DNA from: Mobula hypostoma
Taxonomy: Eukaryota
DNA: 64,000 bases
NCBI RefSeq assembly: GCF_963921235.1
Contig: NC_086097.1
Coordinates: 175,710,001-175,774,000 of the forward strand
Direction: 5' to 3'
Of the stretch, positions 1,406 to 43,000 are shown one piece after another. Under the pieces are notes generated by a model that was not told the DNA's origin, did no database searches, and saw only the letters and a list, made by a program, of their open reading frames with translations. The stretch's first letter is position 1; every line of letters begins with the position of its first letter. The translations under genes were made by a program, and so were the position numbers.

Positions 1406-1514
1406 ATGCTAAAGAAAGTCCTGCGCCTCTCCAACCGCTCCTTCTTCGCCTTCATCTTCCTCTTCTCCCTCTCCTCCTCCTGCCTCTATTTTATCTATGT
1501 GGCGCCCGGAATAG
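1406..1514 (+). CDS. B4GALT6: Beta-1,4-galactosyltransferase 6-like, coding exon 1 (cytoplasmic tail + signal-anchor TM)
   Basis: MLKKVLRLSNRSFFAFIFLFSLSSSCLYFIYVAPGI matches the recalled B4GALT6 N-terminus (SNRSLLAFIFFFSLSSSCLYFIYVAPGI). Ends at a phase-1 donor G|GTAAGC (intron starts 1515). Confidence 0.93.
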
Positions 1515-2214
1515 GTAAGCACCGGGGTCTCACTCTTACCGGGGTATGCGCAGGGCAGGTTTTTATTATTGCAGCGTACGTGAGGGGAAGGGGGACACTT
1601 CCCAGTTAATTGCCATACTTGATGTCCCTCCCCGAGAGTACACGGTTTTTGCTGGCCTGCCAGTGTTTTAATTGTTGCAGCCCATTGCAAGGGGAAGCAG
1701 TGATGTGCAGGTTGCACTGTGTTAAGGGGAAGCTCACCAGCGAAGTTGTATCAGGCGCAGACATCGCCTTGGTCGGCGGAGGAATTCAGTTTGTATCGAA
1801 CAAGGTGCGATGTGAATTCCTTGTTCCCCAGGCGAACAATGCATGGTAATAAATAGACTCACAAGTGTAAAACCGTAGAATGGTGCAAAGATTGTGGCGG
1901 AAACACGAGGAAATTGTGGCGGTGCTGCTTTATTAAGTACTGTACTTACTGAGCCAAAATAGTCAGCAGTTTAAAAAAAATGGTTTGTAAAACGTCTTGC
2001 TGACTCGGTGTTTTCTTGCTTTTTTTAATTGGGAGAATGTATAGGGAAAGAATGTTGTAATTGCAAGAGGCTGTAGATGGAATCTGGAGTAACTCAACAG
2101 GTAGAGTAGCATCAGTGGAAGGGTAAGGGATTGTTCCCTCGGACTCCTGTCTCACTATTAACCCAACTTAATCACTGGACAATTTACAATGACCAACTAA
2201 ACTACCCTGTATGT

Positions 2215-2447
2215 AAAAGTTGCTGGTGAACGCAGCAGGCCAGGCAGCATCTCTAGGAAGAGGTGCAGTCGACGTTTCAGGCCGAGACCCTTCGTCAGGA
2301 CTCTTCCTTCAGTTAGTCCTGACGAAGGGTCTCGGCCTGAAACGTCGACTGCACCTCTTCCTAGAGATGCTGCCTGGCCTGCTGCGTTCACCAGCAACTT
2401 TTATGTGTGTTGCTTGAATTTCCAGCATCTGCAGAATTCCTGTTGTT
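2215..2447 (+). mobile_element. Penelope-like element mini-insertion (inverted pLTR fragment + direct pLTR fragment + tail)
   Basis: 12-bp TSD TACCCTGTATGT at 2203-2214 and 2448-2459. 88-bp inverted arms around a 12-nt spacer. Sequence nearly identical to the 3' end of the PLE at 27692-30507. Confidence 0.9.
2315..2350 (+). ncRNA. Minimal type-I hammerhead ribozyme (PLE-type), intact core
   Basis: AGTC-CTGACGA-AGG(GTCTCGG)CCT-GAAAC-GTC^-GACT: stem I AGTC/GACT, CUGANGA and GAAA cores, 3-bp stem II. Stem III is reduced to palindromic ACGT, implying dimer dependence. Predicted cleavage after C2346. Mirror copy on the minus strand at 2267-2302. Confidence 0.8.
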
Positions 2448-4009
2448 TACCCTGTATGTCTTTGGACTGTGTGGGAGAAAACCAGAGGGCCTGAAGAAAA
2501 CCCACTCATTCCACGGGGATGTACATGGGCTTCTTCAGAAGAGTGCCAGAAATTAACTCTGAACTCTGGAATGTCCCTAGCTATAATAGTGTGCGCTAAC
2601 CGCTACACTACATTTCTTTGTGCAAATCTACCTATCACCTATCTGCCTCTGTCTCTCAATTTCACCCTCCTCTTCTCCCCAGCAGCCTCTCGCTGCTTGG
2701 TCCACCTATTGCCTACCTGGAAATCTGCAGATGCTGGAAATCCAAGTAACACACTCATAATTCTGGAGGAACTCAGTAGGCCAAGCAGCGTCTATGGGGA
2801 AAAAAAAGTATAGTCGATGTTTTGGGCTGAGTCCTGCCAAAGGGTCTCTGCCCGAAATGTTGACTACTTTTTTCCAGAGATGCTGCCTGGCTTGCTGGTT
2901 TCATCTAGCATTTTGTATTACCTACCTGTTCACACGACTGCCACTATTTAGAAACTGTTTGGCCACAGTTTCCTGCCTCAATTAAGCAGCATAGAGTCCC
3001 AAATAAATGAAGGGAATCCTGGCTGTTTTCTCAATTAGATTTTTAAACAAATCTAATTAGGTTTTTAAACAAAATCTAACAAAACCCAAACAAACAGCTG
3101 TCTGATTAACTGATGAACCTATTAACCAGAATCCACTGTATTGAAAAGTTGTATCCATTTAAAATTGTACTTGGAGACTTTATATACCTTAAAACTTTTT
3201 GAATATGAAAAATGTAAATATATCGTTCTTTTACACGTTTTAAAATGTATTAACATTACTAACAGCAAAAGAGTTGAGAAATGCTATGGGACTTTGATTA
3301 TGTGATAAATGGAGACTAATCTTAGTTATTGGACATGCAATTTTTGTAAACTCTATTAGTCTGGAATTTAATCCTCCAAAATTACCTTGTTAAATGTTTT
3401 GCTTCTGGTTCGGTAGCCTGTAATCGAGTCAAAAACTTGAGTGTGCAATCCATGCTTACACATGAGTGTATTACTGATTTACTAACGTTCAGCAGTGTCT
3501 CATCAGTAAGAAGATGGGTTGACATGAAGGATTCTGTCACACAGTTGGGTAAGGCAGTGTAGCAGTTAAATTGCTGGACTAATAGCCAAGTTCTGAACCA
3601 TTGATCTATGAACATGGCAATATAGATGATGGCAAGCTCAAAACCATTGGAATGTTGAAATTCTGTCTTCACTGTTCTTCACTGAAGGGAATCTGCCTAA
3701 CTCTCCAATTCAGTTGACTTAACTTCCTCCTCTGTTCAAGTGCTATTAGTGAGAGACAGTAAATATTGTTGCTAATGACATCCACACCCACTGAACAAAT
3801 GGGGAAAAAAGACTTTGTAAGACAAAGAGTATGACTTGACCAATATTTACCCATTAGCAGCATCATTTAAACAGATGATCTCATTCATAGAACTCTCTGA
3901 AGATTTAAGTTGAATGGCCTCATTCATATTTTTCATTTCATGGAAGTTGTGATAATGTATTGTTTGCAAATTAGACCTCTCATGACATTAACTACATAAT
4001 ATCTCAAAC

Positions 4010-5800: not shown

Positions 5801-6885
5801 TCTGACCACGGTTCATTAGAGCTAAAACCAGTAGTTCCACCTATTATGCCACAGCTCTTATAAGTAAAACAATATTCCTGCTTTCCTGTGATACTTTACA
5901 ACATAGCTGCTGGGGTTTCACTACAGATGTAAGGTCTTACCTTGCGATCTAATAAAGTCAGCAGTTTATTCCAGGATTACTTTGGAAGGCTGGAAACACT
6001 CAGGTTCACCTTTTGTCTGTCATTAATAACTTTATTTCCATCTCCCTCTTTCCAAACAATACCATTCCACAGTTAATATCAGATATTAAGAGCTCATCAG
6101 TTTTTCTTAATTCCCAAATGTGCAAATCTTCCTCAGCAATCAGATGTTTCTGTTGTCCAATATCTGTTGTCCTGGCTTCCAACTCAAAAGTAATTTTTTT
6201 CTCAGGTAATAGACACAAAATGCTGGAGGAACTCAACATGTCAGACAGCATCTATGGAGGGAAATAAACAGTAAACATTTCCAGAGCTTGTACTTCTCTA
6301 CCCCTCACCTTGTTCTGGCTTCTGCCCCTCTTTCCAGTCCCGATAAAGGGTCTTGCCTGAAAAGTTAACTGTTTATTCCCTTCTGCAGATGCTGCCGGAC
6401 TTGCTAAGTTCCTCCAGAATTTTGTGATGCTCAAGATTTCTAGCATTGGTGGAAATCTCTTGTATATATTTTTTAGATATTTTACTCTTACATTTTTCCT
6501 GTTTTTCAGCTTTCACTAAGCTCCAAGTTTCATTGCCCCTTCTTTTATTTCCATAACCAGCTGAGTTCCTAATTACCAAGTTATCATTCCCCTATTCAGT
6601 GACATTAATAATTAACTGGTCTCAGAAACTAGACTGAAGCTGTTTATTTCCTTTACCTGTTTAAAAGACTATATTTCCTTTCTTTTCATGCTCAACCCGC
6701 GCCTTCTGTGACATCACAACAGCACAGAGATGGCTGTAATCAAGATGACCAAGTGCTTTACCTGTTTTTTTTCCCCTGCAGATTTGAGATGTAATAACAA
6801 GCTAATTCTGTGTAGTTCAAGGGTTCCCAACCTGGGGTTCATGAACCCCTTGGTTAATGGTAGGGGTCCATGGCATAAAAAAAAA

Positions 6886-19775: not shown

Positions 19776-22290
19776 ATCTAATCATTCCTTTTGACATAGC
19801 CCTTCATTTTTCTTTCATCCATGTGCCTATCTAAGCACCTCTATAACATCCCTAATTTGTCTGCCCCTACTGTTAATCCTGGCAGCATATTGCACACACC
19901 CATCTATGTGTGTTGGGGGTGGGGAGAGATACATATCCTATTTCTGATGCCCCTCTTCCCCTTGTACTTCATGCACCTTAAAGTTAAGCCCCCTGTATTT
20001 GTCATTTCCTTCTTGGGCACAAGTCTCTGGTTAAACACTCGACCTATGCCTCTTATCACGTACACCTCTATCAAGTCACCCCTCAACCTGCTAATGTACA
20101 AAGGAAGAGAAACCTGATAGAAACTTCAGCCTACCCTCTGCCTCTTCTTGCTAAGCTTTTTTTTAGCCAAAGTCTGAAGCTCCTCACTGGCCCACTCCCA
20201 CAGTGAGATGATTTATAATAGTTTAGCAGGCCTGATCATCAACTGGGTGGTACACCCCAATGATTTTTTTTGGATGAGTAAGATGACATATCTGCTGCTG
20301 TTGATAAATATTCTCAAATTGATATTAAGAAATAATTATTTTAGTTTGGAATAAACTCCAAGGATTTGATTATCAGAGCCCACTTTCAAATTAGACCTAA
20401 TATAACTTTTTTCTGAGTTTGTAAGTATCGCATTTGAAATACTAGAAATGACCAAATTAAAGTCTAGTTAGAGCTTGGGAATGAAAAACCTGCAAAGGTA
20501 TGTTCTGTTGGTGATAACCTTGTATAGTAGGTAAGCGAGAAGCAGCCAGCAAATGTAAAGGGTTTTTTTTAAGAAATCTAAGGCAGAGTTGTCTCTAAAT
20601 GGTTGATAGATTTAGAGCAAGCAATATGAGAGGAATAAAATCCTGTAGTCAAACCAATTCTTGTCAGTGCCATCGTTTGGAGTTTTTCTATCCAACCTTG
20701 CTCAAAAAAATAATTCAAGAAATGTGTAATGTGAAAGAAAATAGCCATACAGATGATTGAAGCAAACTTTGTCTTGCAGAAGAATATATTAAGCCAACTC
20801 GAACAGTGGTCTCAATCACAATGTTCAATGTCTTTTACAAATAAATTACCAGTGGACTTTTTCAGGCTAAAAGAAAGAGCTTTGAAGGAGAATAAATAGC
20901 TAGCGTTGCAGGAGCTAGAATTTGGCAGCAAAGTTGGAAAGTGCTGGAGTCAACAGATGTTGAGCCAAGAATAGCTAGCTTGCTACCCAGGAAATATGAT
21001 AATAGCTATTTGCCCGACTTTCCCTCAAAAGGGCAGTATCGAACTAGGGGAATGTTTTAAATGGTCAGTTAAAAAGAAGCTACAGAAAGATGTGTTTTAA
21101 AAGCATTATTGAAAGCTCAAATGATTTAGACTTGTATAAGGATGAAAAAGTCGTGCTATGAAAGCAAACCGCTGGTAAACAGTAAATTCAGAGAAGCAGA
21201 AGGCCAATGGTCCTGAAACTAAATTGAATTCTTTTTTAAAGTTGAGTTAGAGTAACAAAATGGTTGTTAATGGTCTTATTATGTGAAGTTCTGGGTAAGG
21301 TATGAATTGAACTCTGACCTAAGCAACTGAATTTAATTTCAAGGAATAAAGTAACATTTGGTTATAAAAATAAAAGTAACAATGATCATGAAATTACTTG
21401 GTTAATGTAAAAATCCATCTGTTTTACTGTTACACTGCTAGAAAGAAAATTGGCAATAGCAGTAGGGATAGGCCACTTGATCCCTTAAACCTGCCCCACC
21501 ATGCAATATGATCATGGCTTATCTGTCTCAGACCTCAACTTCTGTTCTGTGCCACTTCTCCATCGCCCTCAACTTCCTGGTCTTTCAACTCCTTGTTTCC
21601 ACAATCCCCAGGGATACAGAATTCTACTATTCTCCATGAATCGCTTTTGGACAGCCTGGGTTTGCATGACAACCCCCTAATGTTTTAGCTATGGCCCCTT
21701 GTTCAATGTTCTCCAGCAGTGAAAACACCTCAATATCTAGCTCATGCTGCCCTTGAGTATCTTGCATTCCATTAAGGTCGCTCCTTATGTGAAGCTTTTA
21801 AAGTAAATCTATTTTCTTTAGCCATTCATGATGGATCAGCTCTCGTATCCCAGCAGTTAGTCTAGTGAATCTCTTTTTGATTAGCCTACAGTGCAAATGT
21901 ATTCTTAAATTAAGGAACTAGAACTGTACAGTACTCCAGGTCTGACCTTACTAGTACCCTGTACAATTACTTCCCTATTTCAATTTCAATTTCAATGACC
22001 TATGAAGGTCATTGTCATCCACACCTGTCTGCATCAGTATAGCCTCACTAGGGGATCCCACACATATCCTAGCTACTCATTTTTTCATATCTGTAAAGCT
22101 TTTGCTGTTTTAACATTACTATTCAATGTTTTTTTTAGTGTTGTAAAATTCACATTCATCAACTGCTAATGTTCCTCTTGTTTTCAGCTTAATTTTTTCA
22201 TCCTTTTTGGAGCATGGGGCAGTGCAGCACTGGAATAGGTCCTATAAGCTGACAATATTCCACTGAAGTAATTAAACCGGTAACCAAATA

Positions 22291-23876
22291 CAGGTGTCCT
22301 CCGCTTTTCGAACGTTCGCTTTACGAAACCTCACTCTTGCGAAAGACCTACATTAATTACCTGTTTTTGCTAACAGGAGGTGTTTTCACTGTTACGATGA
22401 AAGGCAGTGCGCGCCCCGAACAACCGCTCCTCCCCCGGATTCGGAACTGCATTCTAGCCGGCATTGCTTAAACACATGCCTGTGAGCAGCTGTTTGCAAG
22501 ATGAGTTCTAAGGTATCGGAAAAGCTTAAAAGAGCTCGTAAGGAAGTTACACTTAGTGTAAAACTAGACATAATTAAGCATTTCAATTGTGGTGAACGAA
22601 GTAAGGACAAAGTGAGTTTGGCTTGTGGAAGTTGACGAAGATGATGTTGAAGAGGTTTTGGCATCTCCTGACCAAGCACTGATAGATGAAGAGCTGATGT
22701 GATTGGAAGAGGAAAGGATAACAATCGAAACCGAATGCAGTAGCAAACGGACCGAAAGTGAAGTCGTCCAGGAACTAAACATCAAGCAACTGCGTGAGAT
22801 TTTCACTGCAGTTATTGCAGAAAAGTACAACTTTAACTTTGAAAGAGTACGTCAGTTTAGGGCATATTTGCGAGATGGTTTGAGTCCTTACAAAGAACTG
22901 TATGATCTAAAAATGTGCAAGGCTAAGCAGTCAAGCAAGCCTTCCACATCAGCCACAGCAGGCGACGAACCTCGACTTTCGACATCGAGGCAGGCAGACT
23001 TAGAAGAAGATGACCTGCCTGCCCTGATGGAAATAGCCGATAAGATGACACCCCAGTGCCCCACCACCCCAACCCCTGGGCCGTGGACAGATACCGACCC
23101 GTGAAGAATGCAGTGGTAGCTGGGACGCACCCAGCACATCTTTAAGGAAAAAAGCCGAAATAAGCTAATCAATTAGGTGCCACCCGGCACGCGAATGTCG
23201 GCCCAGATCAGAGGCGATTGCCGATTGCGTCGCCTCTGATATGGGCCAACATTTACGTGCCGGGTGGCACCTAATTAATCAGCATGTTTATTTTGGCTTT
23301 TTTCTTAAAGATGTGCTGGGTGCGTCCTGGCTACCACTGTACCCCTGCATGCTTCGCAGATCAGTATCGATTCGCTGCCCAGAGGGTGGGGGCCACTGCA
23401 CCACCCCAACCTCCGACGACTCAGCCTAACACACCATCATCAGTGTGCTCTGTGCTGTCTTCCTGATTTCCGTAAGTGATACTACATTGTACATACATTA
23501 TTTCTACTTTATATAGGCTGTGTATTTTTGTGTTATTTGGTATGATTTGGCAGCTTCATAGCTTAAAGAGAGTGTCTCTGCTGAGAGCACATGCGTGAGA
23601 TTTTCGCTACAGAGAACAGTGCAGGCAATGATTGTAGTGAAGTATTAGTACTTTATATAGGCTGTGTATTTATCATATTCCTGCTTTTACTGTATGTTAC
23701 TGTTATTTTAGGTTTTATGTGTTATTTGGCATGATTTGGTAGGTTTTTTTGGGTCTGCAAATGCTCACAATTTTTCCCCATATAAATTAATGGTAATTGC
23801 TTCTTTGCTTTATGACATTCCGGCTTATGAACCATTTCATAGGATCGCTCTACCTTCGGATAGCGGGGGAAACCTG
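22291..23876 (+). mobile_element. Tigger (pogo-family) non-autonomous deletion derivative, copy 1
   Basis: TA-CAGGTGTCCTCCGC..GCGGGGGAAACCTG-TA termini. Transposase N-terminus at 22501 (MSSKVSEKLKRARKEVTLSVKLDIIKHF) is joined to the acidic C-terminus (EVDEDDVEEVL..); no DDE domain. Confidence 0.88.
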
Positions 23877-24596
23877 TACCCAACTACACTAATCTCTTCT
23901 GTTTGTGCAATGTCCATATCCTTCGATTCTCTGCACATTCACGTACCTATCTAAGAGCCCCTTAAATCCACCACTGCCCTGTCGGCACCCTCCAATCACA
24001 TGCCACTTCATGTTTTAAAATAAGATAAAAGTGCCCTGCAGTTGTTCTTTGAACTTGCCTACTCTTGTCGCAATGGATGTCCTCTATTATACCATTTCAA
24101 CCATGGTGGAAAATGTACTGGCTGTCTGCTAATTTTATGAACTTCTGTCAACCTCCCCTGCTCCAGAGAAGTTAACTCAAATTTGTCCAAACTCTCTTCA
24201 TAGCTCAAACCTTCTACTCCAAGTAGCATCCTGGTAGACCTCTTCTGCAGTGTTTAGCTACAGCAAATTCTGGTCAAACCTCTGCATTACAAAGGAGAGG
24301 TTTACATTTACCAGTATAGTGAATGTGCTCAAAGTGTTGTATCAGAAATGCCACATTATTCCAACTGAACCCAACTTGCATTTTATTTTACGTTATCTAC
24401 TTTTGTACTGTGTTCCTTCAAAGCCAAGAATCTGGAACAGCTTATAACCTGTCTGTTCAGCTTGTCCTATGAGCTTCACAGATTTGTATAAATACCGTAA
24501 ATTCCAGTGTGTAAGCTGAGAATTTGGCCCTAAATTTTAGTCCCAAAATTGGGGGGTTGGCTTATACAGAGGGTGCCAACTTTGGGAAAATGAATA

Positions 24597-27236
24597 CAGG
24601 TTTCCCCCGCCATCGGAAGGTAGAGCGTTCCTATGAAACGGTTCGTAAGCCGGAATGTTGTAAAGCGAAGAAGCAATTACCATTAATTTATATGGGAAAA
24701 ATTTGTGAGCGTTCGCAGACCCAAAAATAACCTACCAAATCATGCCAAATAACACATAAAACCTAAAATAACAGTAACATATAGTAAAAGCAGGAATAAT
24801 ATGATAAATACACAGCCTATATAAAGTAAAAATACTTCTCTACAATCATTGCCTGCACTGTTCTCCGTAGCGAAAATCTCACGCAAGCGCTCTCAGCAGA
24901 AACACGGCGCAAGCACTCTCGGCAGAAACACTCTCTCCAGTAACCTTTAAGCTATGAAGCTGCCAAATCATGCCAAATAACATGTAAAAATACACAGCCG
25001 ATATGTACAGTGTAGTATCACTTACGGGAATCGGGAAGACAGTGCTGAGCACACTGGTGTGCTAGACTGAGTCAGCAAAGGTTGGGGTGGTGCAGTGACC
25101 CCCACCCTCCGGGCAGCGAACCGATACCGATCCTCAAAGCATGCAGGGGTACAGCGGTAGCTGGGATGCACCCAGCACATCTTTAAGAAAAAAGCCAAAA
25201 TAAACAAGCTAATTGATTAGGTGCTGCCTGGCACTTAAATGTCGGAGCAGATCAAAGGCGATGCAATCAGCAATCGCCTCTGATCTGGGCCGACATTTAC
25301 GTGCCGGGTGGCACCTAATCAATTAGCTTGTTTATTTCGGCTTTTTTTCTTAAAGGTGTGCTGGGTGCATCCCGGCTACCGCTGCATTCTTTGCGGATTG
25401 GTATCTGCGGCCCGGGGGTTGGGCTGGTGGGACACTGGGGTGTCATCTTATCGTTGATTAGGGCAGGCAGGTCATCTTCAACTTTTGTGTGTTTCTTCTA
25501 TGCCTACCTCGATGTTAAAGGTCGAGGTTCGTCGTCTGCTGTGGTTGATGTGGAAGGTTTGCTTGACAGCTTAGCCTCGTGCATTTTTAGATCATACAGT
25601 TCTTTGTAAGGACTCAAACCATCTTGCAAATATACCCTAAACCGATGTACCCTTTCAAATTTAAAGTCGTACTTTTCTGCAATAATTGCAGCGCAAATCT
25701 CACGCAGTTGCTTCATGTTCAGTTCCTGGACGGCTTCACTTTTGGTCCGTTTGCTACTGCATTCGATTTCGATTGTTATCCTTTCCTCTTCCAATTGCAT
25801 CAGCTGTTCATCTATCAGTTCTTGGTCATGGGATGCCAAAATCTCTTCAACATCATCTTCGTCAGCTTCCACAAGCCAAACTCACTTTGTCCTTACTTCA
25901 CGCAAACAACAGGAATTCTGCAGATGCTGGAAATTCAAGCAACACACATCAAAGTTGCTGGTGAACGCAGCAGGCCAGGCAGCATCTATAGGAAGAGGCG
26001 CAGTCGACGTTTCAGGCCGAGACCCTTCGTCAGGACTAACTGAAGGAAGAGTGAGTAAGGGATTTGAAAGCTGGAGGGGGAGGGGGAGATGCAAAATGAT
26101 AGGAGAAGACAGGAGGGGGAGGGATGGAGCCAAGAGCTGGACAGGTGATAGGCAGAAGGGGATACGAGAGGATCATGGGACAGGAGGTCCGGGAAGAAAG
26201 ACCGGGGGGGGGGGGTGACCCAGAGGATGGGCAAGGGGTATATTCAGAGGGACAGAGGGAGAAAAAGGAGAGTGAGAGAAAGAATGTGTGCATAAAAAAG
26301 AGTAACAGATGGGGTACGAGGGGGAGGTGGGGCCTAGCGGAAGTTAGAGAAGTCAATGTTCATGCCATCAGGTTGGAGGCTACCCATACGGAATATAAGG
26401 TGTTGTTCCTCCAACCTGAGTGTGGCTTCATCTTTACAGTAGAGGAGGCCGTGGATAGACATGTCAGAATGGGAATGGGATGTGGAATTAAAATGTGTGG
26501 CCACTGGGAGATCCTGCTTTCTCTGGCGGACAGAGCGTAGATGTTCAGCAAAGCGGTCTCCCAGTCTGCGTCGGGTCTCACCAATATATAAAAGGCCACA
26601 TCGGGAGCACCGGACGCAGTATATCACCCCAGTCGACTCACAGGTGAAGTGATGCCTAACCTGGAAGGACTGTTTGGGGCCCTGAATGGTGGTAAGGGAG
26701 GAAGTGTAAGGGCATGTGTAGCACTTGTTCCGCTTACACGGATAAGTGCCAGGAGGGAGATCAGTGGGGAGGGATGGGGGGGACGAATGGACAAGGGAGT
26801 TGTGTAGGGAGCGATCCCTGCGGAATGCAGAGAGAGTGGGGGAGGGAAAGATATGCTTAGTGGTGGGATCCCGTTGGAGGTGGCGGAAGTAAGGTGTCCT
26901 TACTTCGTTCACCATGATCGAAACACTTAATTATGTCTAGTTTTACGCTAAGCGTAACACCCTTACAAGCTCTTTTAGGTTTTTCCAATACTGTACCTTA
27001 GAACTCATCTGGCTAATGGATGCTCACAGGTACATGTTTAAGCAATGCTGGCTAGAATGTAGTTCTGAATCCGGGGGAGGAGCGGCTGTTCGGGGTGCAA
27101 GCTGCGTTTTTTTTGCGCGCTGCCTTTTTTCGTAACAGTGAAAACACCTTATGTTAGCGACAACAGGTAACTAATGTAGGTCTTTCGTAACAGCGAGGTT
27201 TCGTAAAGCAAACGTTCGAAAAGTGGGGGACACCTG
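24597..27236 (-). mobile_element. Tigger non-autonomous element, copy 2 (inverted relative to copy 1), with PLE insertion
   Basis: Reverse-complement match to 22291-23876; TA flanks at 24595-24596 and 27237-27238. Confidence 0.9.
25900..26894 (-). mobile_element. 5'-truncated PLE (linker + GIY-YIG endonuclease + pLTR + tail)
   Basis: 12-bp TSD TGTCCTTACTTC at 25888-25899 and 26895-26906; Tigger copy 1 shows the single empty site. Encodes CKRNKCYTC..VIYCVRCSRCGLLYIGETRRRLGDRFAEH..GMNIDF. Intact hammerhead at 26002-26037 (-). Confidence 0.93.
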
Positions 27237-27691
27237 TACACGGAAGACAGGTCATATTTATTGGCTGTTTTTGAGTCAAATATAAAAGAAAATACAAACG
27301 CTTATGAAATCTACACAAAAGAAAAGATCTACAAAACACATTGTTTCTCAATTTACTTGTACACGCTGTTGTCTTCAAACGTTCAGAGCTTGAAACTCTG
27401 TCACACTTCATTATCTGACTCTCCGAAAATTGTGTCCCATTCTTCGGCAGTCACCATATCATAAGGATTGTCAATCTTTGTCTCACCTGACAAGTGCTCT
27501 TTGAACATGTCCCAGACAAGTAGCGACTTTTCCTTTCTGAAACCTTCGGGATGTCGACACCACACCTCTTTAACCCACTTCAAGCAACCTGCTTCGTCCA
27601 TCCAGCTGCGTTCTTGAATGTAAACAACACCCTGCGGGAATTTTTCTTTCTTTGGGAATGTTTTCCTCTTAAAAATCACCATTGGTGGTAG

Positions 27692-30507
27692 CAACACGCA
27701 TCAAAGTTGCTGGTGAACGCAGCAGGCCAGGCAGCATCTCTAGGAAGAGGTACAGTCGACGTTTCAGGCTGAGACCCTTCGTCAGAACTAACTGAAGGAA
27801 GAGTTAGGAGATTTGAAAGTGGGAGGGGGAGATCCAAAATGATAGGAGAAGACAGGAGGGGGAGGGATGGAGCCAAGAGCTGGACAGGTGATTGGCAAAG
27901 GGGATATGAGAGGATCATGGGACAGGAGGTCCGGGGAGAAAGACAAGGGCGGGGGGAACCCAGAGGATGGGCAAGGGGTATAGTCAGAGGGACAGAGGGA
28001 GAAAAAGGAGAGTGAGAAAAAGAATGTGTGTATAAAAATAAATAACAGATGGGGTATGAGGGGGAGGTGGGGCATTAGCGGAAGTTAGAGAAGTGGATGT
28101 TCATGCCATCAGATTGGAGGCTACCCAGACGGAATATAAGGTGTTGTTCCTCCAACCTGAGTGTGGCTTTATCGCTAACTGCCGACAGGACATCAACCGT
28201 CTCGACTTCACCGCACCTTGTTCCCATTCCAACCTCACTCCTTCGGAACGCTCTGCTCTCCACTCCCTCTGCACTAATCCTAACCTTATTATTAAACCCG
28301 CTGATAAGGGGGGTGCTGTTGTAGTCTGGCGTACTGACCTCTACCTTCCGAGCCACAGCGACAACTTGCGGATACCTCCTCTTACTTACCCCTCAACCGT
28401 GACCCCACTAAGGAGCACCAGGCCTTTGTCTCCCACACCATCACCGACTTTATCCGCTCAGGGGATCTCCCATTCACTGCTACCAACCTTATAGTTCCCA
28501 CACCTCGCACTTCCCATTTCTACCTCCTACCCAAGATCCACAAACCTGCCTGTCCTGGCAGACCTATTGTCTCAGCTTGCTCCTGCCCCACCGAACTCGT
28601 TTCTGCATACCTCGACACGGTTTTATCCCCCCTTGTTCAATCCCTTCCTACCCATGTTCGTGACACTTCTCACGCTCTTAAACTTTTCGATGATTTTAAG
28701 TTCCCTGGCCCCCACCACTTTAATTTCACCATGGATGTCCAGTCCCTATATACTTCCATCCCCCATCAGGAAGGTCTCAAAGCTCTCCGCTTTTTGGATT
28801 CCAGACCTAATCAGTTCCCCTCTACCACCACTCTGCTCCGTCTAGCGGATTAGTCCTTACTCTTAATAATTTCTCCTTTGGCTCCTCCCACTTCCTCCAA
28901 ACTAAAGGTGTAGCTATGGGCACCTGTATGGGTCCTAGCTATACCTGCCTTTTTGTTGGCTTTGTGGAACAATCTATGTTCTGTGCCTATTCTGGTATCT
29001 GTCCCCCTCTTTTCCTTCGCTACATCGACGACTGCATTGGTGCTGCTTCCTGCACGCATGCTGAGCTTGTTGACTTTATTAACTTTGCCTCCAACTTTCA
29101 CCCTGCCCTCAAGTTTACCTGGTCCATTTCTGACACCTCTCTCCCCTTTCTAGATCTTTCTGTCTCTGTCTCTGGAGACAGCTTATCCACTGATGTCTAC
29201 TATAAGCCTACTGACTCACACAGCTATCTGGACTATTCCTCTTCTCACCCTGTCTCTTGCAAAAACGCCATCCCCTTCTCGCAATTCCTCCGTCTCCGCA
29301 GCATCTGCTCTCAGGATGAGGCTTTTCATTCCAGGGCGAGGGAGATGTCCTCCTTTTTTAAAGAAAGGGGCTTCCCTTCCTCCATCATCAACTGCTCTCA
29401 AACGCATCTCCCCCATTTCACGTACATCTGCTCTCACTCCATCCTCCCGCCACCCCACTAGGAATAGGGTTCCCCTGGTCCTCACCTACCACCCCACCAG
29501 CCTCCGGGTCCAACATATTATTCTCCGTAACTTCCTCCACCTCCAACGAGATCCCACCACTACGCACATCTTTCCCTCCCCCCCCCCGCATTCCGCAGGG
29601 ATCGCTCCCTACGCGACTCCCTTGTCCATTCGTCCCCCCCATCCCTCCCCACTGATCTCCCTCCTGGCACTTATCCTTGTAAGCGGAACAAGTGCTACAC
29701 ATGCCCTTACACTTCCTCCCTTACCACCATTCAGGGCCCCAGACAGTCCTTCCAGGTGAGGCGACACTTCACCTGTGAGTCGGCTGGGGTGATATACTGC
29801 GTCCGGTGCTCCCGATGTGGCCTTCTATATATTGGCGAGACCCGATGCTGACTGGGAGACCGCTTGCTGAACACCTACGCTCTGTCCGCCAGAGAAAGCA
29901 GGATCTCCCAGTGGCCACACATTTTAATTCCACATCCCATTCCCATTCTGACATGTCTATCCACGGCCTCCTCTACTGTAAAGATGAAGCCACACTCAGG
30001 TTGGAGGAACAACACCTTATTTTCCGTCTGGGTAGCCTCCATCCTGATGGCATGAACATCGACTTCTCTAACTTCCGCTAATACCCCACCTCCCCCTCGT
30101 ACCCCATCCATTATTTATTTTTATACACACATTCTTTCTCTCACCCTCCTTTTTCTCCCTCTGTCCCTCTGACTATACCCCTTGCCCATCCTCTGGGTCC
30201 CCCCCCCCTGTCTTTCTCCCCGGACCTCCTGTCCCATGATCCTCTCATATCCCCTTTGCCAATCACCCGTCCAGCTCTTGGCTCCATCCCTCCCCCTCCT
30301 GTCTTCTCCTATCATTTTGGATCTCCCCCTCCCCCTCCCACTTTCAAATCTCTTACTAACTCTTCCTTCAGTTAGTCCTGACGAAGGGTCTCGGTCTGAA
30401 ACGTCGACTGTACCTCTTCCTAGAGATGCTGCCTGGCCTGCTGCGTTCACCAGCAACTTTGATGTGTGTTGCTTGAATTTCCAGCATCTGCAGAATTCCT
30501 GTTGTTT
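27692..30507 (+). mobile_element. Neptune-type PLE: inverted pLTR (27692-~28172) + 5'-truncated RT-GIY-YIG + pLTR/tail
   Basis: 14-bp TSD ACCATTGGTGGTAG at 27678-27691 and 30508-30521. RT motifs KPADKGGAVV, FYLLPKIHK, MDVQSLYTSI, GVAMGT, RYIDD, FLD, YYKPTD; Cys linker and GIY-YIG; several frameshifts; ORF stop at 30081. Confidence 0.93.
30374..30409 (+). ncRNA. Minimal type-I hammerhead ribozyme in PLE pLTR, intact core
   Basis: AGTC-CTGACGA-AGG(GTCTCGG)TCT-GAAAC-GTC^-GACT; antisense counterpart at 27754-27789. Confidence 0.78.
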
Positions 30508-32044
30508 ACCATTGGTGGTAGTTTGGTCCCATCAGCCATACACGTTAATACGACAGTAAAATGTTGCTTCTCGTATCCAGTAGTTTTGAAAAGGACTGTT
30601 TTCTCCTCCTGATTGACAGCGCAGTTGCCAGCAAAATCAAAGAACGTTGGTGTCTTGTCCATGTTACCAATCAGTGAGAGCGGGTAAGAATGTGCCTTTC
30701 GATGCTTGATTACAAATGATTGAAAGGCCGTAATCTTATTCTCATGGTCGCTTGGCAACTTCTGAGCAATCTTTGTTTTTTGTCTCAACACAAGATCATA
30801 TCTGTTCATAAATCGGGTGCACCAACTTCGCGTAGCTTTGAAGTTTTTGCTGACCTCATGGTGTTTTTCGGCCATTTCAACGCTTGGACTCAAATCAAAT
30901 GTATCCAGACGGTCACTGGTGATTCACCCACTCTAAAACTTTTTCTTCTAGTTCTGGCCACTGGCATGTTTTCCTGGTTTGCACATTTCGTCTTTGGTAT
31001 TTCTCTCAGTGTGTCCTCTGCCTTTCACCACTCTCTCACTTGTTTCTCGTTTACACTAAATTTCTTAGCAGCTGCAGAATTATTCGTTCCTTTAGCCAAA
31101 TCAACAACCTGCAGCTTGAAGCCAGCATCATATCGCATTCGTTTTAATCTTTGTACATGGTGGTCGCAGACTCAATACTGAGTACACGTACTGATCCCAC
31201 CACCCCGTGTTATGTTTAACGAGATTACGATGGGCGCTAAATGGATCCACGGGGGTTACATTTCAGAGAATTCTTTACCATTGGGAACCTAATCCAAAAC
31301 TTCCCTCCCTGATTTATTTATTAAGAATTGGCTTATAATGCTCTAGAATGTGTAGGCCTATTTTCTTAGCAGGTACTGGTTCGCAGAATTTCCAGGTTCT
31401 GGATCTGGCAAAGCTGAGTACCGGCATGTGAGATCTTGTGATCTTTTCTGGTTAAATCAAAAACCTCTACAAACGGGGTTGGCTTATACAAAGGTAACAT
31501 GAAAAAGTCACTTTCTTAACCTTGAAAATGGGGGGTCGGCTACTCAGGGTCGGCTTATACACTAGAATTTACAGTAGTCATATTTCTGTTCCAGTGACTC
31601 CATTAACTTTGCACTGCTTATATTGCCTATAGATTTATAAAACTTATCACTTCACACATTATGCATTATTTCATTTGTCAAACTTCTGCCCATTTCATGA
31701 GTCAAAGCAGTCAATGACAGCTAATTTTTGACATCAGGCTACCAAAATGAATATTCGTCAAGATAGTTTGAAGTAATTACTTAGGATAAGCATTTAAAAA
31801 AAACATTTTGCTGTTTCTAGGTTCAATGACAATTCAACGTTCAAAGTAAATTTATTGTCAAAGTACATGTGTCACCATTTGCTGCCTTGAGATTCATTTT
31901 CTTGCAGGTGTTCACAGAAAAACAAAATTAGTGAAAGACTTACACATCAAGACTGACAAATACACTGAACAAAATAAATTGTGCAAATAAGAATAAGTAA
32001 ATGATACTGAGAGCATAAGATGTAGAGTCCTTGAAAGTGAGTCC

Positions 32045-32277
32045 AAACACAAGGAAATCTTGGAGATGCTGGAATTTCAAGCAACACAAATAAAAGTTGC
32101 TGGTGAACGCAGCAGGCCAGGCAGCATCTCTAGGAAGAGTTACAGTCGACATTTCGGGCGGAGACCCTTCGTCAGGGGAGGAGGTTGGTCCTGACGAAGG
32201 GTCTCGGCCTAAAACGTCGACTGTACTGCTTCCTAAAGATGCTGCCTGGCCTGCTGCGTTCACCAGCAACTTTTATC
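32045..32277 (-). mobile_element. Second PLE mini fold-back insertion
   Basis: Same architecture as 2215-2447 in opposite orientation, with a different spacer (GGAGGAGGTTGGT). Interrupts a Rex-like 3' tail (..GTGAGTCC|..TAGGTTTGTGG). Confidence 0.85.
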
Positions 32278-33454: not shown

Positions 33455-36400
33455 CACCCTCAAATATTGTGTCAGTGCAGGTCCTAAATAATTTGATTAG
33501 ATCTAGGAATTTAGTAGATATTTGGTAAGTTCAACATCCCACTGACAAGGACTATTCTATTATTCTCATGCACACAAATCTTATAGTAGAATAGACTATT
33601 TTTTGGTTGACTCTCATTTAATATCTTGTGCTACCAATACAAAATATCATAATAGATTAATTTCTGACCATAGCCCCTTGACAATGTCCCTAAATCTCTC
33701 CCTTTCCAAACGAATCTATTCCTGGTGTTTTAACCCCTCCCTACTCACCAATAAGAAATTTATAGAATATATCACCACCAGATTTAAAGATTTTATAGAA
33801 ATTAATGATAACGGCAAGGTGTCAGATTCCACACTCTGGGAGACGTTAAAAGTTGTAATTCGTGGGTATATAATTTCATATGAATCCGCTGCTAAGAGGG
33901 AGAGAGAAGGATGATTATTAGAGATTGAGAATACTCTCCCAACCCTCGAAGCAACATACCAGGCTTCGAAGTCCTCTGAAGATTATAATAAAATAATGAA
34001 GCTTAAATATGAGTACAATTGTATCTTGGGTGTTCAAATAAATAAACTCTTAAAATTAAGACAAAAGCATTTTGAAATGGAGGACAAGCCTGAGGGGCTC
34101 CTGGCACGGCAGCTCAGGGGCGCCCAGGCCCTAAGGTCAATTCATTGCATTAGATCGAGGGCAGGTACCCTGTTAACTAACCCCAGGGAGATAAATGACT
34201 GTTTTAAAGAATTTTACAGCTAACTCTACACCTCTAAATGCAATGCCACTCAATCTGATTTGAATGACTGATTCTTTTGTAATGCCGAAACTTAGTGACG
34301 CTTCTAGGGAGGACTTAGATTCTGACTTCACATTGGAAGAAATAACTTCTGCCGTTAAGTCATTTCCATCCGGCAAGGCTGCTGGGCCGGATGGATTTGG
34401 CTGTGAATTTTAGAAGGAATTCTGTGATATCCTTGCCCACTTCTCCTCAGAATGATATCTTGCTGTGAGAGAGATAAAGCTTTGTCTAGGACATTGTACG
34501 AGGCTAACATTTCCCTCATTTTAAAGAAAGGTAAAGAGGAAACAGACCCGGCCAGCTATAGGCCCATTGCACCAGAATTTCGATAGAAAGGTAATTACTA
34601 AAATGCTGGCTAACCAACTAAATAAGTATTTGTCATCTATCATTCATCTGATCAGACAGGATTTGTCCCAGGTAGGTTCTCTTTTTCCAATGTCAGATAC
34701 CTCCTTAATACTATATATGCTGATCATGGGAAAGCTGATGGGGCAGCAATTTTGTCCCTTGATGCACAGAAGACTTTTGACCATATTGAGTGGCCTTACA
34801 TGTTTGAGTCACTGTACAGGTTTGGGTTCGGGGAGTCATTTGTATCTTGGGTAAAACTGATATACGCCAGCCCAATGTGTTCTATTATAACTAATGGTGA
34901 CAAGTCAACTCTGTTTCCCCCACACCATTCAGTCCAGCAGGGGTGCCCCCTCTTGCCGGCCCTTTTTGCCGTCGCGGTAGAGCCCCTTGCCTTAAAAATA
35001 AGAAGTCACCCAAATATTCTGGGTTTGAAAGTGGGACGTATTGAAACACTTATTAGTTTATATGCTGATGATGTGATACTCTACTTACAAAAGTCAGAAA
35101 AGTCAGTCCCTCTTCTAGATTTAATCACCTCTTTTGGCAGACTATCGGGATACTCAGTCAATTGGGCAAAAAGTGACTTTGTGCCCCTCTCCAATGACTA
35201 CACGCGGGGCTTTTTGGAAAGTGTCCCGTTCAAAGTAGTTAAAGATCCCTTTACTTATCTTGGCTTGACAATCCCCAAAGATCCTAAATTAATATTTAAA
35301 TTAAACTTCGCAGAGTTTATTTCAAAACTTAAACAGAATATAGAAAGTTGGAAAACCCTACTTCCGTCCATGATTGGTCGTATAAATTCAATTAAAATGG
35401 TTTCCCTTCCTAGGTTTCTCTACCTTTGTCAAAATCTCCCCTTTTTTCTTACATCAGCTTTCTTTAAAGAATTGGACTCCATAATATTGCCTTATATCTG
35501 GAATTATAAGTATCACAGGATTTCGAAAATTCATTTACAAAAGCCCAAGTCTGAAGGAGGGCTGGGATTACCTGTATTTAAACACTATTATTGGGCTGTC
35601 AATGCTAGGACTTTAATGTTTTGGCAACAGGGGGCTCTGGATAACCTAGCTCCTGGGTAACCTAACTCTGTTGTCAATTCCTCCTTGCCATCCATGCTGC
35701 TCTCTAAGTTAGAGAACCTGGGACTTCAAAAAGTTTGAGTTTTGTTTTGAAAAATTCCATCAGAATTCTAAATCAGATTAGAAGCATTCTGAATTTACCA
35801 GAGACCTCTGTACAAACACCAATCTGTTTCAATCACTCCTTTCTACCATCATGGTCAGATAAAACCTACCATACTTGGAGGGAGAAGGGTCTAGTTTCTA
35901 TTGAAGACCTGTACATAAAAGGACGGTTTGCAACATTTAGTCTGCTGAAAGAGAAATTTGAGCTGCCACATTTGCACTTTTTTCGTTACTTACAAATTAG
36001 ATACTGCATTCAATCTAAGATTTGTAATTTTGAAATCCTTCCAGGGAAACGTGTTTTTTGATATTTTAAAGAACCCTCCTGATGCCAGGCGTCTCGTTTC
36101 TAAGTTTGTACGTTTGTTTGATAATTGCACTGTAGCATCTACTGTGAAGATTAGAGATGCCTGGAGAGAGGAGTTGGGCATTGAATTATCTGAAGCTGCC
36201 TGGGATAAGTGTTTGTCTATGATACAGGCTTGATCTGTTAACAGCAGGCACCAAATGGTCCAGTTTAAGGTTGTCCGCTGTCTCCATTACTCTAAACTTA
36301 GATTGCACAGGATTTACCCTTCTGTCTCACCAATGTGTGATAGATGCCAAGGGACGGAAGCCACGTTGTCACACACCTTTTGGTTTTGCCTATTATTGAC

Positions 36401-36933
36401 TGGATTTTGGTCCAAAATATTCGACTGGTACTCAAAGGCCTATAAAAGATCCTTCCCCTTGGAAGATGGTCTCGCTGTATTTGGCTGCTTGCAATCTACT
36501 ATTTGTTTCCCTGTAGCCATACAACAGTCTCTGATGCTGGGGATGATTGTTGCCAAAAGACTTACCTTGATGGAATGGAAATCGCCTTCTCCCCCTTCCT
36601 TTCGGAGATGGATGGCTGATATGATCTCAGTCATACAGATGGAGAAACTTAGGCTCTTGAGAACCAATTCAATTTAAAAATTTTTGGCTATCTGGGATCC
36701 ATTTCTTGCCTACCTGGACGAGGCTGGGGGCGGATGAGCAATTTCCCCCCAGCTGATTTCTCACGGCCCTCATTTGAGATTTGATGTTTAGTATTTTTGA
36801 GCACTTTGTACAATAGGCATCCCTCTAATGTTATGTCTCTTTTTGCTTATTTCATTTTTATACATGTCTGAGCTGGTATGTTCTTGTTGATTTCATTGTT
36901 TTTTTTTAAATTTTGAAATTAAAGTATTAAAAA
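33455..36933 (+). mobile_element. L1-clade LINE, 5'-truncated ORF2 remnant
   Basis: SRIDY..ISDHSP (APE end), WETLKVVIRGYIISY, SLDAQKTFDHIEW, QGCPLLPALF, LYADD, FTYLG, EGGLGLP, C-terminal CDRC..LSHTFWFC; A-rich end. Duplicated AGCAGTGTAC at 33441-33450 and 36936-36945 is the probable TSD. Confidence 0.92.
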
Positions 36934-40074: not shown

Positions 40075-43000
40075 TGACACAGTGGTGTCAAAAAAACCAC
40101 CTTTCCCTCAGTGTTGCAAAAACAGAGGAGCTGGTTGTGCACTACAGGAGGAATGGAGACAGGCTAGCCCCTATTGACATCAGTGGATCTAAGGTTGAGA
40201 CGGTGAACAGCTTTAAGTTCCTCGCTATAAACATCACTGAGAATCTCGTGGTCTGTACATACTGGCTGTGGTGAAAAAGGCACAACAGCGCCTCTTTCAC
40301 CTCAGACAGTTGAAGTTTGGTGTGGGGCCCCCAATCCTAAGAACTCTCTATAGGGGCACAATTGAGAGCAGCCTGACTGGCTGCATCACTGCCTGGTATG
40401 GGAACTGTACTTCCTTCCCTCAATCGCAGGACTTTGCAGAGAGTGATGTGGACAGCCCAGTGCATCTCTTGATGTGAACTTCCCACTAGTCAGGACATTT
40501 ACAAAGACTGGTGTATAAAATGGGCCTGAAGGATCATTGGGGAACCGAGTCACCCCAACCACAAACTGTTCCAGCTGCTATCATCTGGGAAATAGTACCA
40601 CAACATAAGCCAGGACCAATAGGCTCCAAGACAGCTTCTTCCACTAGGCCATTAGACTGCTTAACTCATGCTGACACAACTGTATTTCTGTTATATTGAA
40701 TGTCCTGTTGTGCATAATATTTATTATAAATTACTATAATTGCACATTTAGACAGATCTAATGTAAAGATTTTACTCCTCATGTATTTGAAGGATGTAAG
40801 TAATAACTTGCTTCAAAAAGGCAACAATTATATCAGTGCCTAAGAAGAGTAAAGTGAGCTGCCTTAATGACTATCACCCGGCAGCACTCACATCTACAGT
40901 GATGAGATGCTTTGAGAAGTTGGTCATGACTAGACTAAACTTCTGCCTCTGTAAGGACCTGGACCCATTGCAATTTGCCTATTGCCACAATAGGTCAACG
41001 GCAGATCAATCTCAATGGCTCTCTACGTGCCTTTAGACCACCTGGACACCACAAACACCTCCAGTGGCATGCAAAAGTTTGGGCACCCCTGGTCAAAATT
41101 TCTGTTACTGTGAATAGTTGCGTAGAAGATGAACTGATCTCCAAAAGTCATAAAGTTAAAGATAAAATGTTCTTTTCAACATTTTAAGCAAGATTATTTT
41201 TTGTTTTGTACAATTTTAGAGTGGGGAAAAAAGGAAAGGAGCACCATGCAAAAGTTTGGACACCCCAAGAGATTTGAGCTCTCAGATAATTTTTACCAAG
41301 GTCTCAGACCTTATTTAGCTTGTTTGGGCTATGGCTTGTTCACAGTCATGGTTAGGAACGGCCTGGAGATGCGAATTTCAAAGCTTTATATATACCCTGA
41401 CTCCTCAAACCTTGTCCCAACAATCAGCAGCCATGGGCTCCTCTAAGCAGCTGCCTAGCACTCAGAAAATTAAAATAAATGATGCCCACAAAGCAGGAGA
41501 AGGCTATAAGATGATAGCAAAGCGTTTTCAGGTAGCTGTTTCCTCAGTTCATAATGTAATTAAGAAATGGCAGTTAACAGGAACAGTGGAGGTCAAGTTG
41601 ACTAAGGAAACTTTCCGAGAGAACTGCTCGTAGGATTGCTAGAAAGGCAAATCAAAATCCCCGTTTGACTGCAGAAGACCTTCAGGAAGATTTAGCAGAC
41701 TCTGGAGTGGTGGTGCACTGTTCTACTGTGCAATGACACTTGCACAAATATGACCTTCATGGAAGAGTCATCAGAAGAAAACCTTTCCTGCATCTTCACC
41801 ACAAAATTCAGCATCAAAAGTTTGCAAAGGAACATCCAGACAAGCCTGATGCATTTTGGAAACAAGTCCTGTGGACTGATGAAGTTAAGTTAGAACTTTT
41901 TGGCTGCAATGAGCAAAGGTATGTTTGGAGAAAAAAGGGTACAGAATTTTATGAAAAGAGCGCCTCTCCATCTGTTAAGCACAGTGGGGGGGGGTGGGGT
42001 GGGGGGGAGGTGGATCGCTCATGCTTTGGGCTTATGTTGCAGCCAGTGGCATGGGGAACATTTCACTGGTAGAGGGAAGAATGAATTCAATTAAATACCA
42101 GCAAATTCTGGAAGCAAACATCACACCGTCTGTAAAAAAGCTGAAGATGAAAAGAGGATGGCTTTTACAACAGGATAATGATCCTAAACACACCTCAAAA
42201 TCCACAATGGACTACCTCAAGAGGCGCAAGCTGAAGGTTTTGCCATGGCCCTCACAGTCCCCTGACCTAAACATCATCGAAAATCTGTGGATGGACCTCA
42301 AGAGAGCAGTGCATGCAAGATGGCCCAAGAATCTCACAGAGCTGGAAACCTTTTGCAAGGAAGAATGGGCGAAAATCCCCCAAACAAGAATTGAAAGACT
42401 CTTAGCTGGCTGCAGAAAGCGTTTACAAGCTGTGATACTTGCCAAAGGGGGTGTTACTAAGTACTGACCATGCAGGGTTCCCAAACTTTTGCTTCGGGCC
42501 CGTTTTCTTTTTTGTTGTTTTGAAACTGTAAAAGATGGAAATAAAAAAAAGTAATCTTAAGATATTAAAGAGATGTGTCATCTTTAACTTTATGCCTTTT
42601 GGAAATCAGGTCATCTTTTACTCGCTTAGCTATTCCCAGTAACAGAAATTTTGACCGGGTGCCCAAACTTTTACATACCACTGTATGTCAGGATGCTGTT
42701 CATCGATTATAGTTCAGCATTTACTACCATCATTCCCACAATCCTGAATGAGAAGTTGCAGAACCTGGGCCTCTGTACCTCCCTCTGTAATTGGATCCTT
42801 GACGACCTAACTGGAAGACAACAATCTGTGCGGATTGGTGATAACATCTCCTCACTGACGATCAACGCTAGTGCATCTCAGAGGTGTGTGCTTAGCCCAC
42901 TGCTCTACTCTCTATATACCCATGACTGTGTGGCTAGGCATAGCTCAAATATCATCTATAGATTTGCTGACGTACAGGAGTGAGATATGCCAACTAGTGG

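What the first reader, a model, noticed from the sequence alone, without database searches (positions are those of the whole stretch)
2215..2447. Stand-alone 233-bp ribozyme / anti-ribozyme fold-back with its own TSD
Seen: a non-coding insertion with a 12-bp TSD and 88-bp inverted arms, so each strand carries an intact hammerhead plus its complement. A second such unit lies at 32045-32277, and decayed look-alikes at ~2720-2915 and ~6210-6460. In both clean copies the inverted arm stops at essentially the same point (AAAAGTTGCTGG), ~45 nt short of the 3' tail, but the spacers differ. Known: PLEs carry minimal hammerheads and often integrate with an inverted pLTR. Inference: these are either the minimal repeated product of PLE fold-back priming or a mobile non-autonomous hairpin family. 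This copy lies 700 bp into intron 1 and would form a long pre-mRNA hairpin (ADAR/Dicer substrate).
Basis: partly seen in the sequence, partly recalled or inferred. Interest (0 to 1): 0.7.

Follow-up and report, generated by a model that had tools for sequence, protein, structure and literature searches.

The report
Double-primed Penelope hairpin insertion
This 233-base DNA hairpin is a short insertion of the end of a very abundant Penelope-type jumping gene, not a separate ribozyme element; it was likely written by two separate copying starts, one from each cut end of the target, which would explain a long-described but unexplained shape of these elements.

Summary
The unit is real: 233 bp, a 12-bp TSD, perfect 88-bp arms. 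It is the last 148 nt of a Neptune/Nematis-type Penelope-like element (PLE) plus an inverted, tail-less copy, the known 'inverted pLTR + tail' anatomy at minimum size. The genome holds 1,820 such short hairpins; 58 of 103 young tailed insertions carry an inverted arm. They are mostly made afresh: 70 junctions in 91 copies, unlinked to subfamily. Simple fold-back priming fails: the tail-less arm reaches further as often as the tailed one (this junction 15 as-is, 12 mirrored; another 30 and 33), only 10 of 45 clean junctions could snap back, and tail-less copies also insert alone with TSDs. Likely mechanism: both cut target ends prime on one RNA at two start sites, and the cDNAs join by microhomology. 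The hammerheads are predicted to be sequestered. A minority of hairpins share junctions with neighbours within 2 Mb (p=0.003), including this copy's 232/233 twin. The scan noted the double-priming reading before, in this and other genomes.

The parts
2203..2214 (+). left copy of the 12-bp target-site duplication
   Evidence: single copy in uninterrupted host repeats
2215..2302 (-). inverted, tail-less PLE arm (inferred second cDNA, started about 45 nt inside the tail end of this unit)
2300..2447 (+). last 148 nt of the PLE, tail-bearing arm (inferred first cDNA)
   Evidence: 98% identical to window 30359-30506 and 25905-26052
2300..2302 (.). 3-nt microhomology (ACT) shared by the two arms at the junction
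   Evidence: junction type L256: stem 3, loop 12
2303..2314 (+). 12-nt 'spacer': native pLTR sequence just 5' of the hammerhead
2314..2351 (+). minimal type-I hammerhead motif; predicted cleavage after 2346; activity untested
   Evidence: motif definition in PMC4209133
2266..2303 (-). second minimal hammerhead motif, in the inverted arm
2403..2447 (+). part of the PLE end not mirrored (the one-sided 'tail' plus about 10 nt)
2448..2459 (+). right copy of the target-site duplication
2150..2600 (+). host interspersed repeat (SINE-like by recall) interrupted by the insertion; limits approximate
1406..1514 (+). first coding exon of the host gene, a GT7 galactosyltransferase (B4GALT5/6-like by recall); link to the downstream GT7 exons inferred
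32045..32277 (-). second, older hairpin insertion; different junction, no clear TSD, hammerheads broken
2719..2918 (-). decayed hairpin of an older subfamily
6206..6460 (+). decayed hairpin with a longer spacer
27690..30508 (+). long version of the same anatomy: about 480-nt inverted tail-less arm plus 2.3-kb tailed arm with broken RT and GIY-YIG frames, 14-bp TSD read from the sequence
25901..26893 (-). non-inverted PLE 3' fragment with a GIY-YIG frame

Best explanation
The unit is a short insertion of the 3' end of an endonuclease-bearing Penelope-like retrotransposon, likely built at the moment of insertion by two separate priming events rather than by a fold-back or a self-copying hairpin. 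Shown: PLE origin, TSD, head-to-head arms, one-sided tail, junction diversity and symmetry, solo tail-less insertions. Inferred: the GIY-YIG enzyme nicks both strands about 13-14 bp apart; one target end primes at the RNA's tail end, the other at a second start about 37-45 nt inside, on the same RNA (or the same source transcript); both cDNAs tend to stop just 5' of the hammerhead, probably at an RNA 5' end; the two cDNA ends are joined through 0-4-nt microhomology or short locally templated insertions (theta-type end joining, by recall). In any transcript of the unit the antisense copy comes first, so the hammerheads are predicted to be trapped in the 88-bp duplex and inert.
For: Parent element: tandem natural copy L313, 3,519-nt unit, open 1,043-aa frame with RVT_1 and GIY-YIG (both under Pfam's cut-offs), DKG and CX4CxxC motifs. 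58 of 103 young tailed insertions have an inverted arm. 70 distinct junctions in 91 hairpins; same-junction pairs share haplotype 6% versus 7% for all pairs. The inverted arm reaches further in 43, the tailed arm in 35, equal in 13 of 91; exact junction versus mirror 15:12 and 30:33 genome-wide, 24:18 among the 42 of 87 copies with 0-1 arm mismatch. Of 45 clean junctions, 10 are possible snap-backs and 4 of these have the tailed side longer; overlap of 2 nt or more in 23 of 45 against 14% for random joins; 46 of 91 carry insertions, many matching local sequence. Tail-less arms much longer than tailed arms with only about 12-30 bp of overlap: L299, L417, L427, L439. 24 of 38 picked tail-less arms stand alone, 12 with TSDs of 10-17 bp, ending at -32 to -53. 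Arms agree at subfamily sites (1-3 discordant per site in 60-87 pairs at five non-CpG-type sites, against 26-60% expected for random pairing). In vitro, the anole PLE cuts and extends both strands and starts at two sites bounding the tail (PMC11167929).
Against: This copy's own junction (3-bp stem, 12-nt loop, tailed side longer) is one of the few that a snap-back could make. The hairpin sample was chosen with spacers up to 30 nt, which favours small loops. A perfect palindrome later trimmed at its centre would give similar junctions. Arm lengths are correlated (rho 0.76), as both models allow. No recurring cap-derived G or spliced exon was seen at 18 non-inverted 5' junctions (by eye), so the RNA 5' end is unproven. 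The in vitro data come from a Poseidon element, another clade. This copy has a 232/233 twin 1.86 Mb away, so it may itself be secondary.
Confidence: 0.7

Rival explanations
1. Self-priming fold-back: the first cDNA (or an antisense template, as proposed in PMC3846280) loops back and copies itself; later breakage and repair of the palindrome centre, or flipping between the arms, randomises the junctions.
For: Arms are concordant and share rare variants (19 shared rare variants in 163 hairpins); this copy's junction fits a snap-back; neighbours exchange junction tracts, so centres are not static; published reading of such junctions.
Against: Needs nearly every copy to be revised or flipped: 35 of 45 clean junctions cannot snap back; mirror ratio is already near 1:1 in copies with 0-1 mismatch; long tail-less arms with 12-30-bp overlaps; tail-less copies insert alone with TSDs, so the second site is a priming site.
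Confidence: 0.16
2. A mobile non-autonomous hairpin family propagating from a few master copies.
For: Some junctions recur (15, 12, 30, 33 loci); one long inverted structure occurs at two loci 1.4 Mb apart with the same 1-nt-overlap junction (L315, L316).
Against: The 15 copies of this junction carry 10 haplotypes and outer ends from -34 to -61; 70 junctions in 91 copies; a continuum of arm lengths from 65 to over 2,700 nt.
Confidence: 0.05
3. This particular copy is secondary: its junction or its whole sequence was copied from, or to, the twin 1.86 Mb away, by ectopic gene conversion or local re-transposition (compatible with the best explanation for the first copy).
For: L257 matches 232 of 233 nt with the same uncommon outer end but other flanks and TSD; 8 of 11 pairs within 2 Mb share the junction, 3.1 expected (p=0.003); L260/L261 share a variant seen in 2 of 292 tail arms, in one arm only; L275/L276 share one seen in 4 of 292.
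Against: No local excess among 91 hairpins of contig C1 (3 pairs within 3 Mb, 2.2 expected); 12 of 292 tail arms have this haplotype; conversion would not give identical outer ends; 1 of 14 copies with this base at -51 ends here by itself.
Confidence: 0.3
4. A selected ribozyme/anti-ribozyme switch or dsRNA regulator of the host galactosyltransferase gene.
For: Intronic position near exon 1; perfect 88-bp duplex; an exact tail-TSD-flank contig in a second organism suggests the insertion is shared.
Against: One of about 1,800 alike by-products; forcing the hammerhead costs about 69 kcal/mol; single minimal hammerheads showed no cleavage in vitro (PMC4209133).
Confidence: 0.04
5. Assembly artefact.
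For: Perfect palindromes can be mis-assembled; no contig spans the whole unit.
Against: True TSD; diverse junctions with CpG decay in single arms; exact 47- and 49-nt contigs holding this junction in short-read runs of two organisms (under 31 letters a side).
Confidence: 0.01

Closest known systems
EN+ Penelope-like element insertions with an inverted 5'-truncated copy and a one-sided 30-40-bp tail (PMC8557442 Fig. 2 legend; Adineta Pen2a, PMC3846280)
   Same: Head-to-head arms, tail on one side, TSD around the whole insert, hammerhead in the pLTR, ORF starting at the tail.
   Different: Here both arms are at minimum length (no ORF); PMC3846280 explains such junctions by self-priming, which the junction symmetry here does not fit.
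Anole Poseidon element in vitro (PMC11167929)
   Same: Two start sites bounding the tail; both strands cut and extended; uncleaved RNA is the template (no peak of ends at the predicted cut here).
   Different: Other clade; its start lies in an AC-rich stem-loop, here the RNA strand is UG-rich; the parts read do not derive inverted copies from the two starts.
L1 twin priming (as summarised in PMC10760644)
   Same: Second priming at the target site; two cDNAs joined by microhomology; 5' inversion.
   Different: In L1 (by recall) the inverted piece lies upstream and does not repeat the 3' piece; here the second start is a fixed site near the 3' end, so the arms overlap and form a palindrome, in over half of insertions.
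Minimal hammerheads of metazoan PLEs (PMC4209133) and non-LTR retrozymes (bioRxiv 10.64898/2026.07.22.740005)
   Same: Minimal core with ACGU helix III, extra base after position 9; opposite-strand pairs were noted in Schistosoma.
   Different: G.U at 10.1-11.1; not a tandem direct repeat, so not a retrozyme; cannot dimerise in cis.

Membership tests
EN+ PLE, Neptune/Nematis type | single ORF with RT and C-terminal GIY-YIG | tested here: met
   L313 frame of 1,043 aa: RVT_1 E 3e-5, GIY-YIG E 4e-4, both below curated cut-offs; over 1,000 homologues with the same domains
EN+ PLE, Neptune/Nematis type | DKG motif, CX2-5CxxC linker, CCHH in the endonuclease | tested here: met
EN+ PLE, Neptune/Nematis type | placement in Neptune rather than Nematis by RT phylogeny | not tested
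   no tree with named reference elements was built
EN+ PLE insertion | partial tandem pLTR, inverted 5' copy, one-sided tail, TSD | tested here: met
   TSD of 12-17 bp in 75 of 91 hairpins
Minimal type-I hammerhead | CUGANGA and GAAA boxes, helices I-II, palindromic helix III | tested here: met
Minimal type-I hammerhead | G10.1-C11.1 pair | tested here: not met
   G.U in this subfamily; G-C in a minority (8 of 91)
Minimal type-I hammerhead | self-cleavage as a dimer | not testable with these tools
   needs in vitro assay
Non-LTR retrozyme | tandem direct repeats, each with a hammerhead | tested here: not met
   single inverted unit
Non-autonomous hairpin family (MITE- or SINE-like) | shared master structure: fixed ends and junction linked to subfamily | tested here: not met

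The most novel reading that the evidence does not exclude
Penelope elements integrate by symmetric double target priming: one RNA is copied from two fixed start sites at the two cut ends, and the cDNAs are end-joined, so the inverted pLTR and the one-sided tail are one event. The thousands of resulting hairpins are then fragile centres that swap junction tracts with similar hairpins up to 2 Mb away, a genome-wide recorder of local ectopic repair.
Probability: 0.45. Interest if true: 0.62.

Novelty: new member of a known kind. Interest (0 to 1): 0.42.

Why it matters
How PLEs make their inverted ends and one-sided tail is described as unresolved in the papers read, and the one explicit proposal found is self-priming. 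This genome offers thousands of young events whose junction symmetry separates the models and gives predictions for the existing in vitro system. The unit itself is an ordinary by-product with no sign of function. The local sharing of junctions is a smaller, separate lead on palindrome instability in a vertebrate germ line.

Tried and rejected
Rfam: no family at gathering score in the window; only hairpin-shaped chance hits below cut-off at the unit. One search used a gap range that missed the modal length; its 315 matches were not used for counts. PDB sequence search of the RT fragment gave nothing. Sequencing runs: no RNA holder on record; only contigs were available, so editing, small RNAs and RNA ends could not be read. 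After I guessed the insertion was absent in organism B; one search found an exact tail-TSD-flank contig there, so the guess was dropped. Hammerhead cut site as cDNA end: 2 of 30 tail-only copies end near it, no peak. Cap-derived G or spliced exon at 5' junctions: not seen in 18. A-to-G excess among variants shared by both arms: 4 of 19 against 14 of 153, p=0.12; three of the four come from one copy, L347. Local clustering among 91 C1 hairpins: none. Dropped rows: L429 (fetched in the wrong orientation), L377 (duplicate of L375 with identical flank, left out; it is included in the count of 30), 2 of 105 running off their locus; one search stopped on an error and was repeated. Paper searches for the double-priming reading in PLEs found none stating it; Evgen'ev and Arkhipova 2005 and Arkhipova 2006 were not seen. 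Supplements of PMC11167929 (Fig. S2 on tail ends) were not read and may bear on this.

Full report
Observation. The window holds a 233-bp insert at 2215-2447 between two copies of TACCCTGTATGT, with perfectly complementary 88-bp arms at 2215-2302 and 2315-2402; it folds at -199.6 kcal/mol, z = -30 against shuffles. It interrupts a common interspersed repeat whose uninterrupted copies carry the duplicated motif once, so the TSD is genuine. It lies 700 bp behind the donor of a first coding exon (an RNA-guessed contig ends at 1514), and Glyco_transf_7N exons follow on the same strand 6-7 kb past the window. The second unit at 32045-32277 is real but older: no TSD of 6 bp or more, and broken hammerheads on both strands. 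Exact short contigs holding the junction occur in short-read runs of two organisms, and a contig joining tail, TSD and flank occurs in the second organism; these are shorter than the tool's bridging standard, but with the TSD they make an assembly artefact very unlikely.

What it is made of. Bases 2300-2447, including the 'spacer', are 98% identical to the 3' ends of longer elements in the window (30359-30506, 25905-26052). Those carry GIY-YIG and RT frames. A natural tandem copy elsewhere (L313) has a 3,519-nt unit and an open 1,043-aa frame with RVT_1 and GIY-YIG matches, the DKG motif and a CX4CxxC linker, the marks of Neptune/Nematis-type PLEs as defined in PMC8557442. The closest named homologue is from Chiloscyllium punctatum at 72%, so the host is probably a cartilaginous fish. 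The frame begins in the tail, as in other PLEs (PMC3846280). The unit is therefore a tailed PLE end of 148 nt plus an inverted tail-less copy, joined through the 3-nt overlap ACT.

How common. Exact-pattern counts: 33,154 hammerhead-plus-tail ends, 44,171 tails, 62,921 hammerhead arms, 1,820 hairpins turning within 30 nt of the hammerhead (1,772 with other anchors); reversed-pattern controls 0. In 105 young tailed insertions from the first 6 Mb of contig C1 (90 of the 100 listed, plus 15 new), 58 have an inverted arm, 45 do not, 2 run off the locus. In 91 of the 100 hairpins listed, TSDs of 12-17 bp were found in 75, and the inverted arm ends at -37 to -42 from the tail end in 50; this copy ends at about -50. 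Arm lengths form a continuum with a strong peak just 5' of the hammerhead: 13 of 30 tail-only copies end 120-180 nt from the end, 5 shorter, 1 between 180 and 420, 11 longer, with no peak at the predicted cleavage site.

Family or repeated product. The 91 hairpins have 70 different junctions, and pairs with the same junction share a subfamily haplotype no more often than any pair (6% versus 7%). This copy's junction occurs at 15 loci on 10 haplotypes with outer ends from -34 to -61. The two arms of a hairpin agree at subfamily sites, so both come from one template lineage. The hairpins are mostly made afresh, and recurring junctions reflect favoured microhomologies.

Fold-back or double priming. 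A cDNA folding back on itself must leave the unpaired sequence on the tailed side and needs a stem and a loop. The tail-less arm reaches further in 43 hairpins, the tailed arm in 35, equal in 13. The mirror image of this junction occurs at 12 loci, and a second junction gives 30 against 33; among copies with 0-1 arm mismatch the ratio is 24:18. Only 10 of 45 clean junctions allow a stem of 2 bp or more with a loop of 3 nt or more, and the commonest junction needs a 2-nt loop. Among long insertions whose arms differ by over 30 nt, the tail-less arm is longer in 18 of 29, some with overlaps of only 12-30 bp. Tail-less copies also insert alone: of 38 arms picked because they were not in the tail lists, 24 stand alone and 12 of these have TSDs of 10-17 bp, ending at the same second site. 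Junctions show excess microhomology (23 of 45 with 2 nt or more, 14% expected) and 46 of 91 carry short insertions, many matching local sequence. I infer that both nicked target ends prime, at the tail end and at the second site, and that the cDNAs are end-joined. PMC11167929 (parts 1-2 of 4 read) shows both strands cut and extended and two start sites bounding the tail in vitro for a Poseidon element. Against this: the present junction is one of the few that could snap back; the sample favours short spacers; and centre revision of a perfect palindrome would give similar junctions. The stop just upstream of the hammerhead likely marks an RNA 5' end, since an initiator-like or 3'-splice-site-like motif lies there (motifs by recall; the D. 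virilis intron ends at helix I, PMC4209133), but neither a cap-derived G nor a spliced exon was seen.

A minority is copied locally. Among 89 loci with four exact junctions, 11 pairs lie within 2 Mb and 8 share the junction (3.1 expected by label permutation, p=0.003). Two pairs share a rare variant in one arm only, and one member keeps an outer arm of another haplotype and its own TSD, the pattern of ectopic gene conversion. This copy has a 232/233 twin 1.86 Mb away with other flanks. No such excess appears among the 91 C1 hairpins, so it is a minor route.

The ribozyme. Both strands match the minimal hammerhead of PMC4209133 (parts 1-2 of 4 read) except for G.U at 10.1-11.1; Rfam has no match. 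Such motifs are reported inactive as monomers; here the antisense copy precedes the motif on either strand, and forcing helix I and the core costs about 69 kcal/mol. Intronic dsRNA is plausible, but editing or dicing could not be tested.

Comparison and novelty. The anatomy is described for PLEs (PMC8557442, PMC3846280, PMC8969392: passages only). PMC3846280 reads the junctions as self-priming. Twin priming is described for L1 (PMC10760644, passages). Six searches found no paper applying double priming to PLE inverted ends; the library lacks most subscription papers. The retrozyme preprint (part 1 of 5 and passages) concerns tandem direct repeats. Earlier notes of this scan reached the same reading in this and other genomes; I had stated it before looking, and they are not independent support. 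Verdict: a real, ordinary product of a known element class that carries a testable clue to an open mechanism; interest 0.42.

Noticed in passing
G000 C1:173854463 (L257) and pairs L260/L261, L275/L276, L331/L332, L346/L347: Hairpins 6 kb to 2 Mb apart share junctions and, in several pairs, single-arm variants while keeping their own TSDs; looks like ectopic conversion or local re-transposition.
   Followed up: partly
L315 1577-5261 and L316 509-4131: A 3.6-kb inverted PLE structure with the same 1-nt-overlap junction at two loci 1.4 Mb apart; one has tails at both ends and no clear TSD, the other a 14-bp TSD.
   Followed up: partly
L347: Three rare A-to-G changes shared by both arms, as from an edited RNA copied twice; 1 of 163 hairpins.
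   Followed up: partly
L192 4776-6132: A tail-less piece ending at the second site joined in direct orientation to a tailed piece, as from re-initiation at the second site.
   Followed up: no
window 30345-30378: Branch-point-like, pyrimidine-rich and AG or initiator-like motifs directly upstream of hammerhead helix I, at the truncation peak.
   Followed up: partly
L313 3273-6404: An intact 1,043-aa PLE frame in a partial tandem whose 3' copy lacks the tail.
   Followed up: partly
window 22289-27238: Large inverted repeat with arms of about 1.6 kb holding pogo/Tigger-like transposase remnants (by recall), interrupted by a PLE fragment.
   Followed up: no
window 49368-51851: 827-aa gag-like frame with an 8-nt tandem repeat, between two direct repeats about 4 kb apart; LTR-retroelement-like.
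   Followed up: no
L110 and L249; L431: Independent insertions into the same position of host repeats (L431 near the same repeat site as this unit), hinting at target preference.
   Followed up: no
window 33546-36677 and 41979-42467: Decayed LINE-like endonuclease/RT frames and a Tc1-like transposase fragment (by recall).
   Followed up: no
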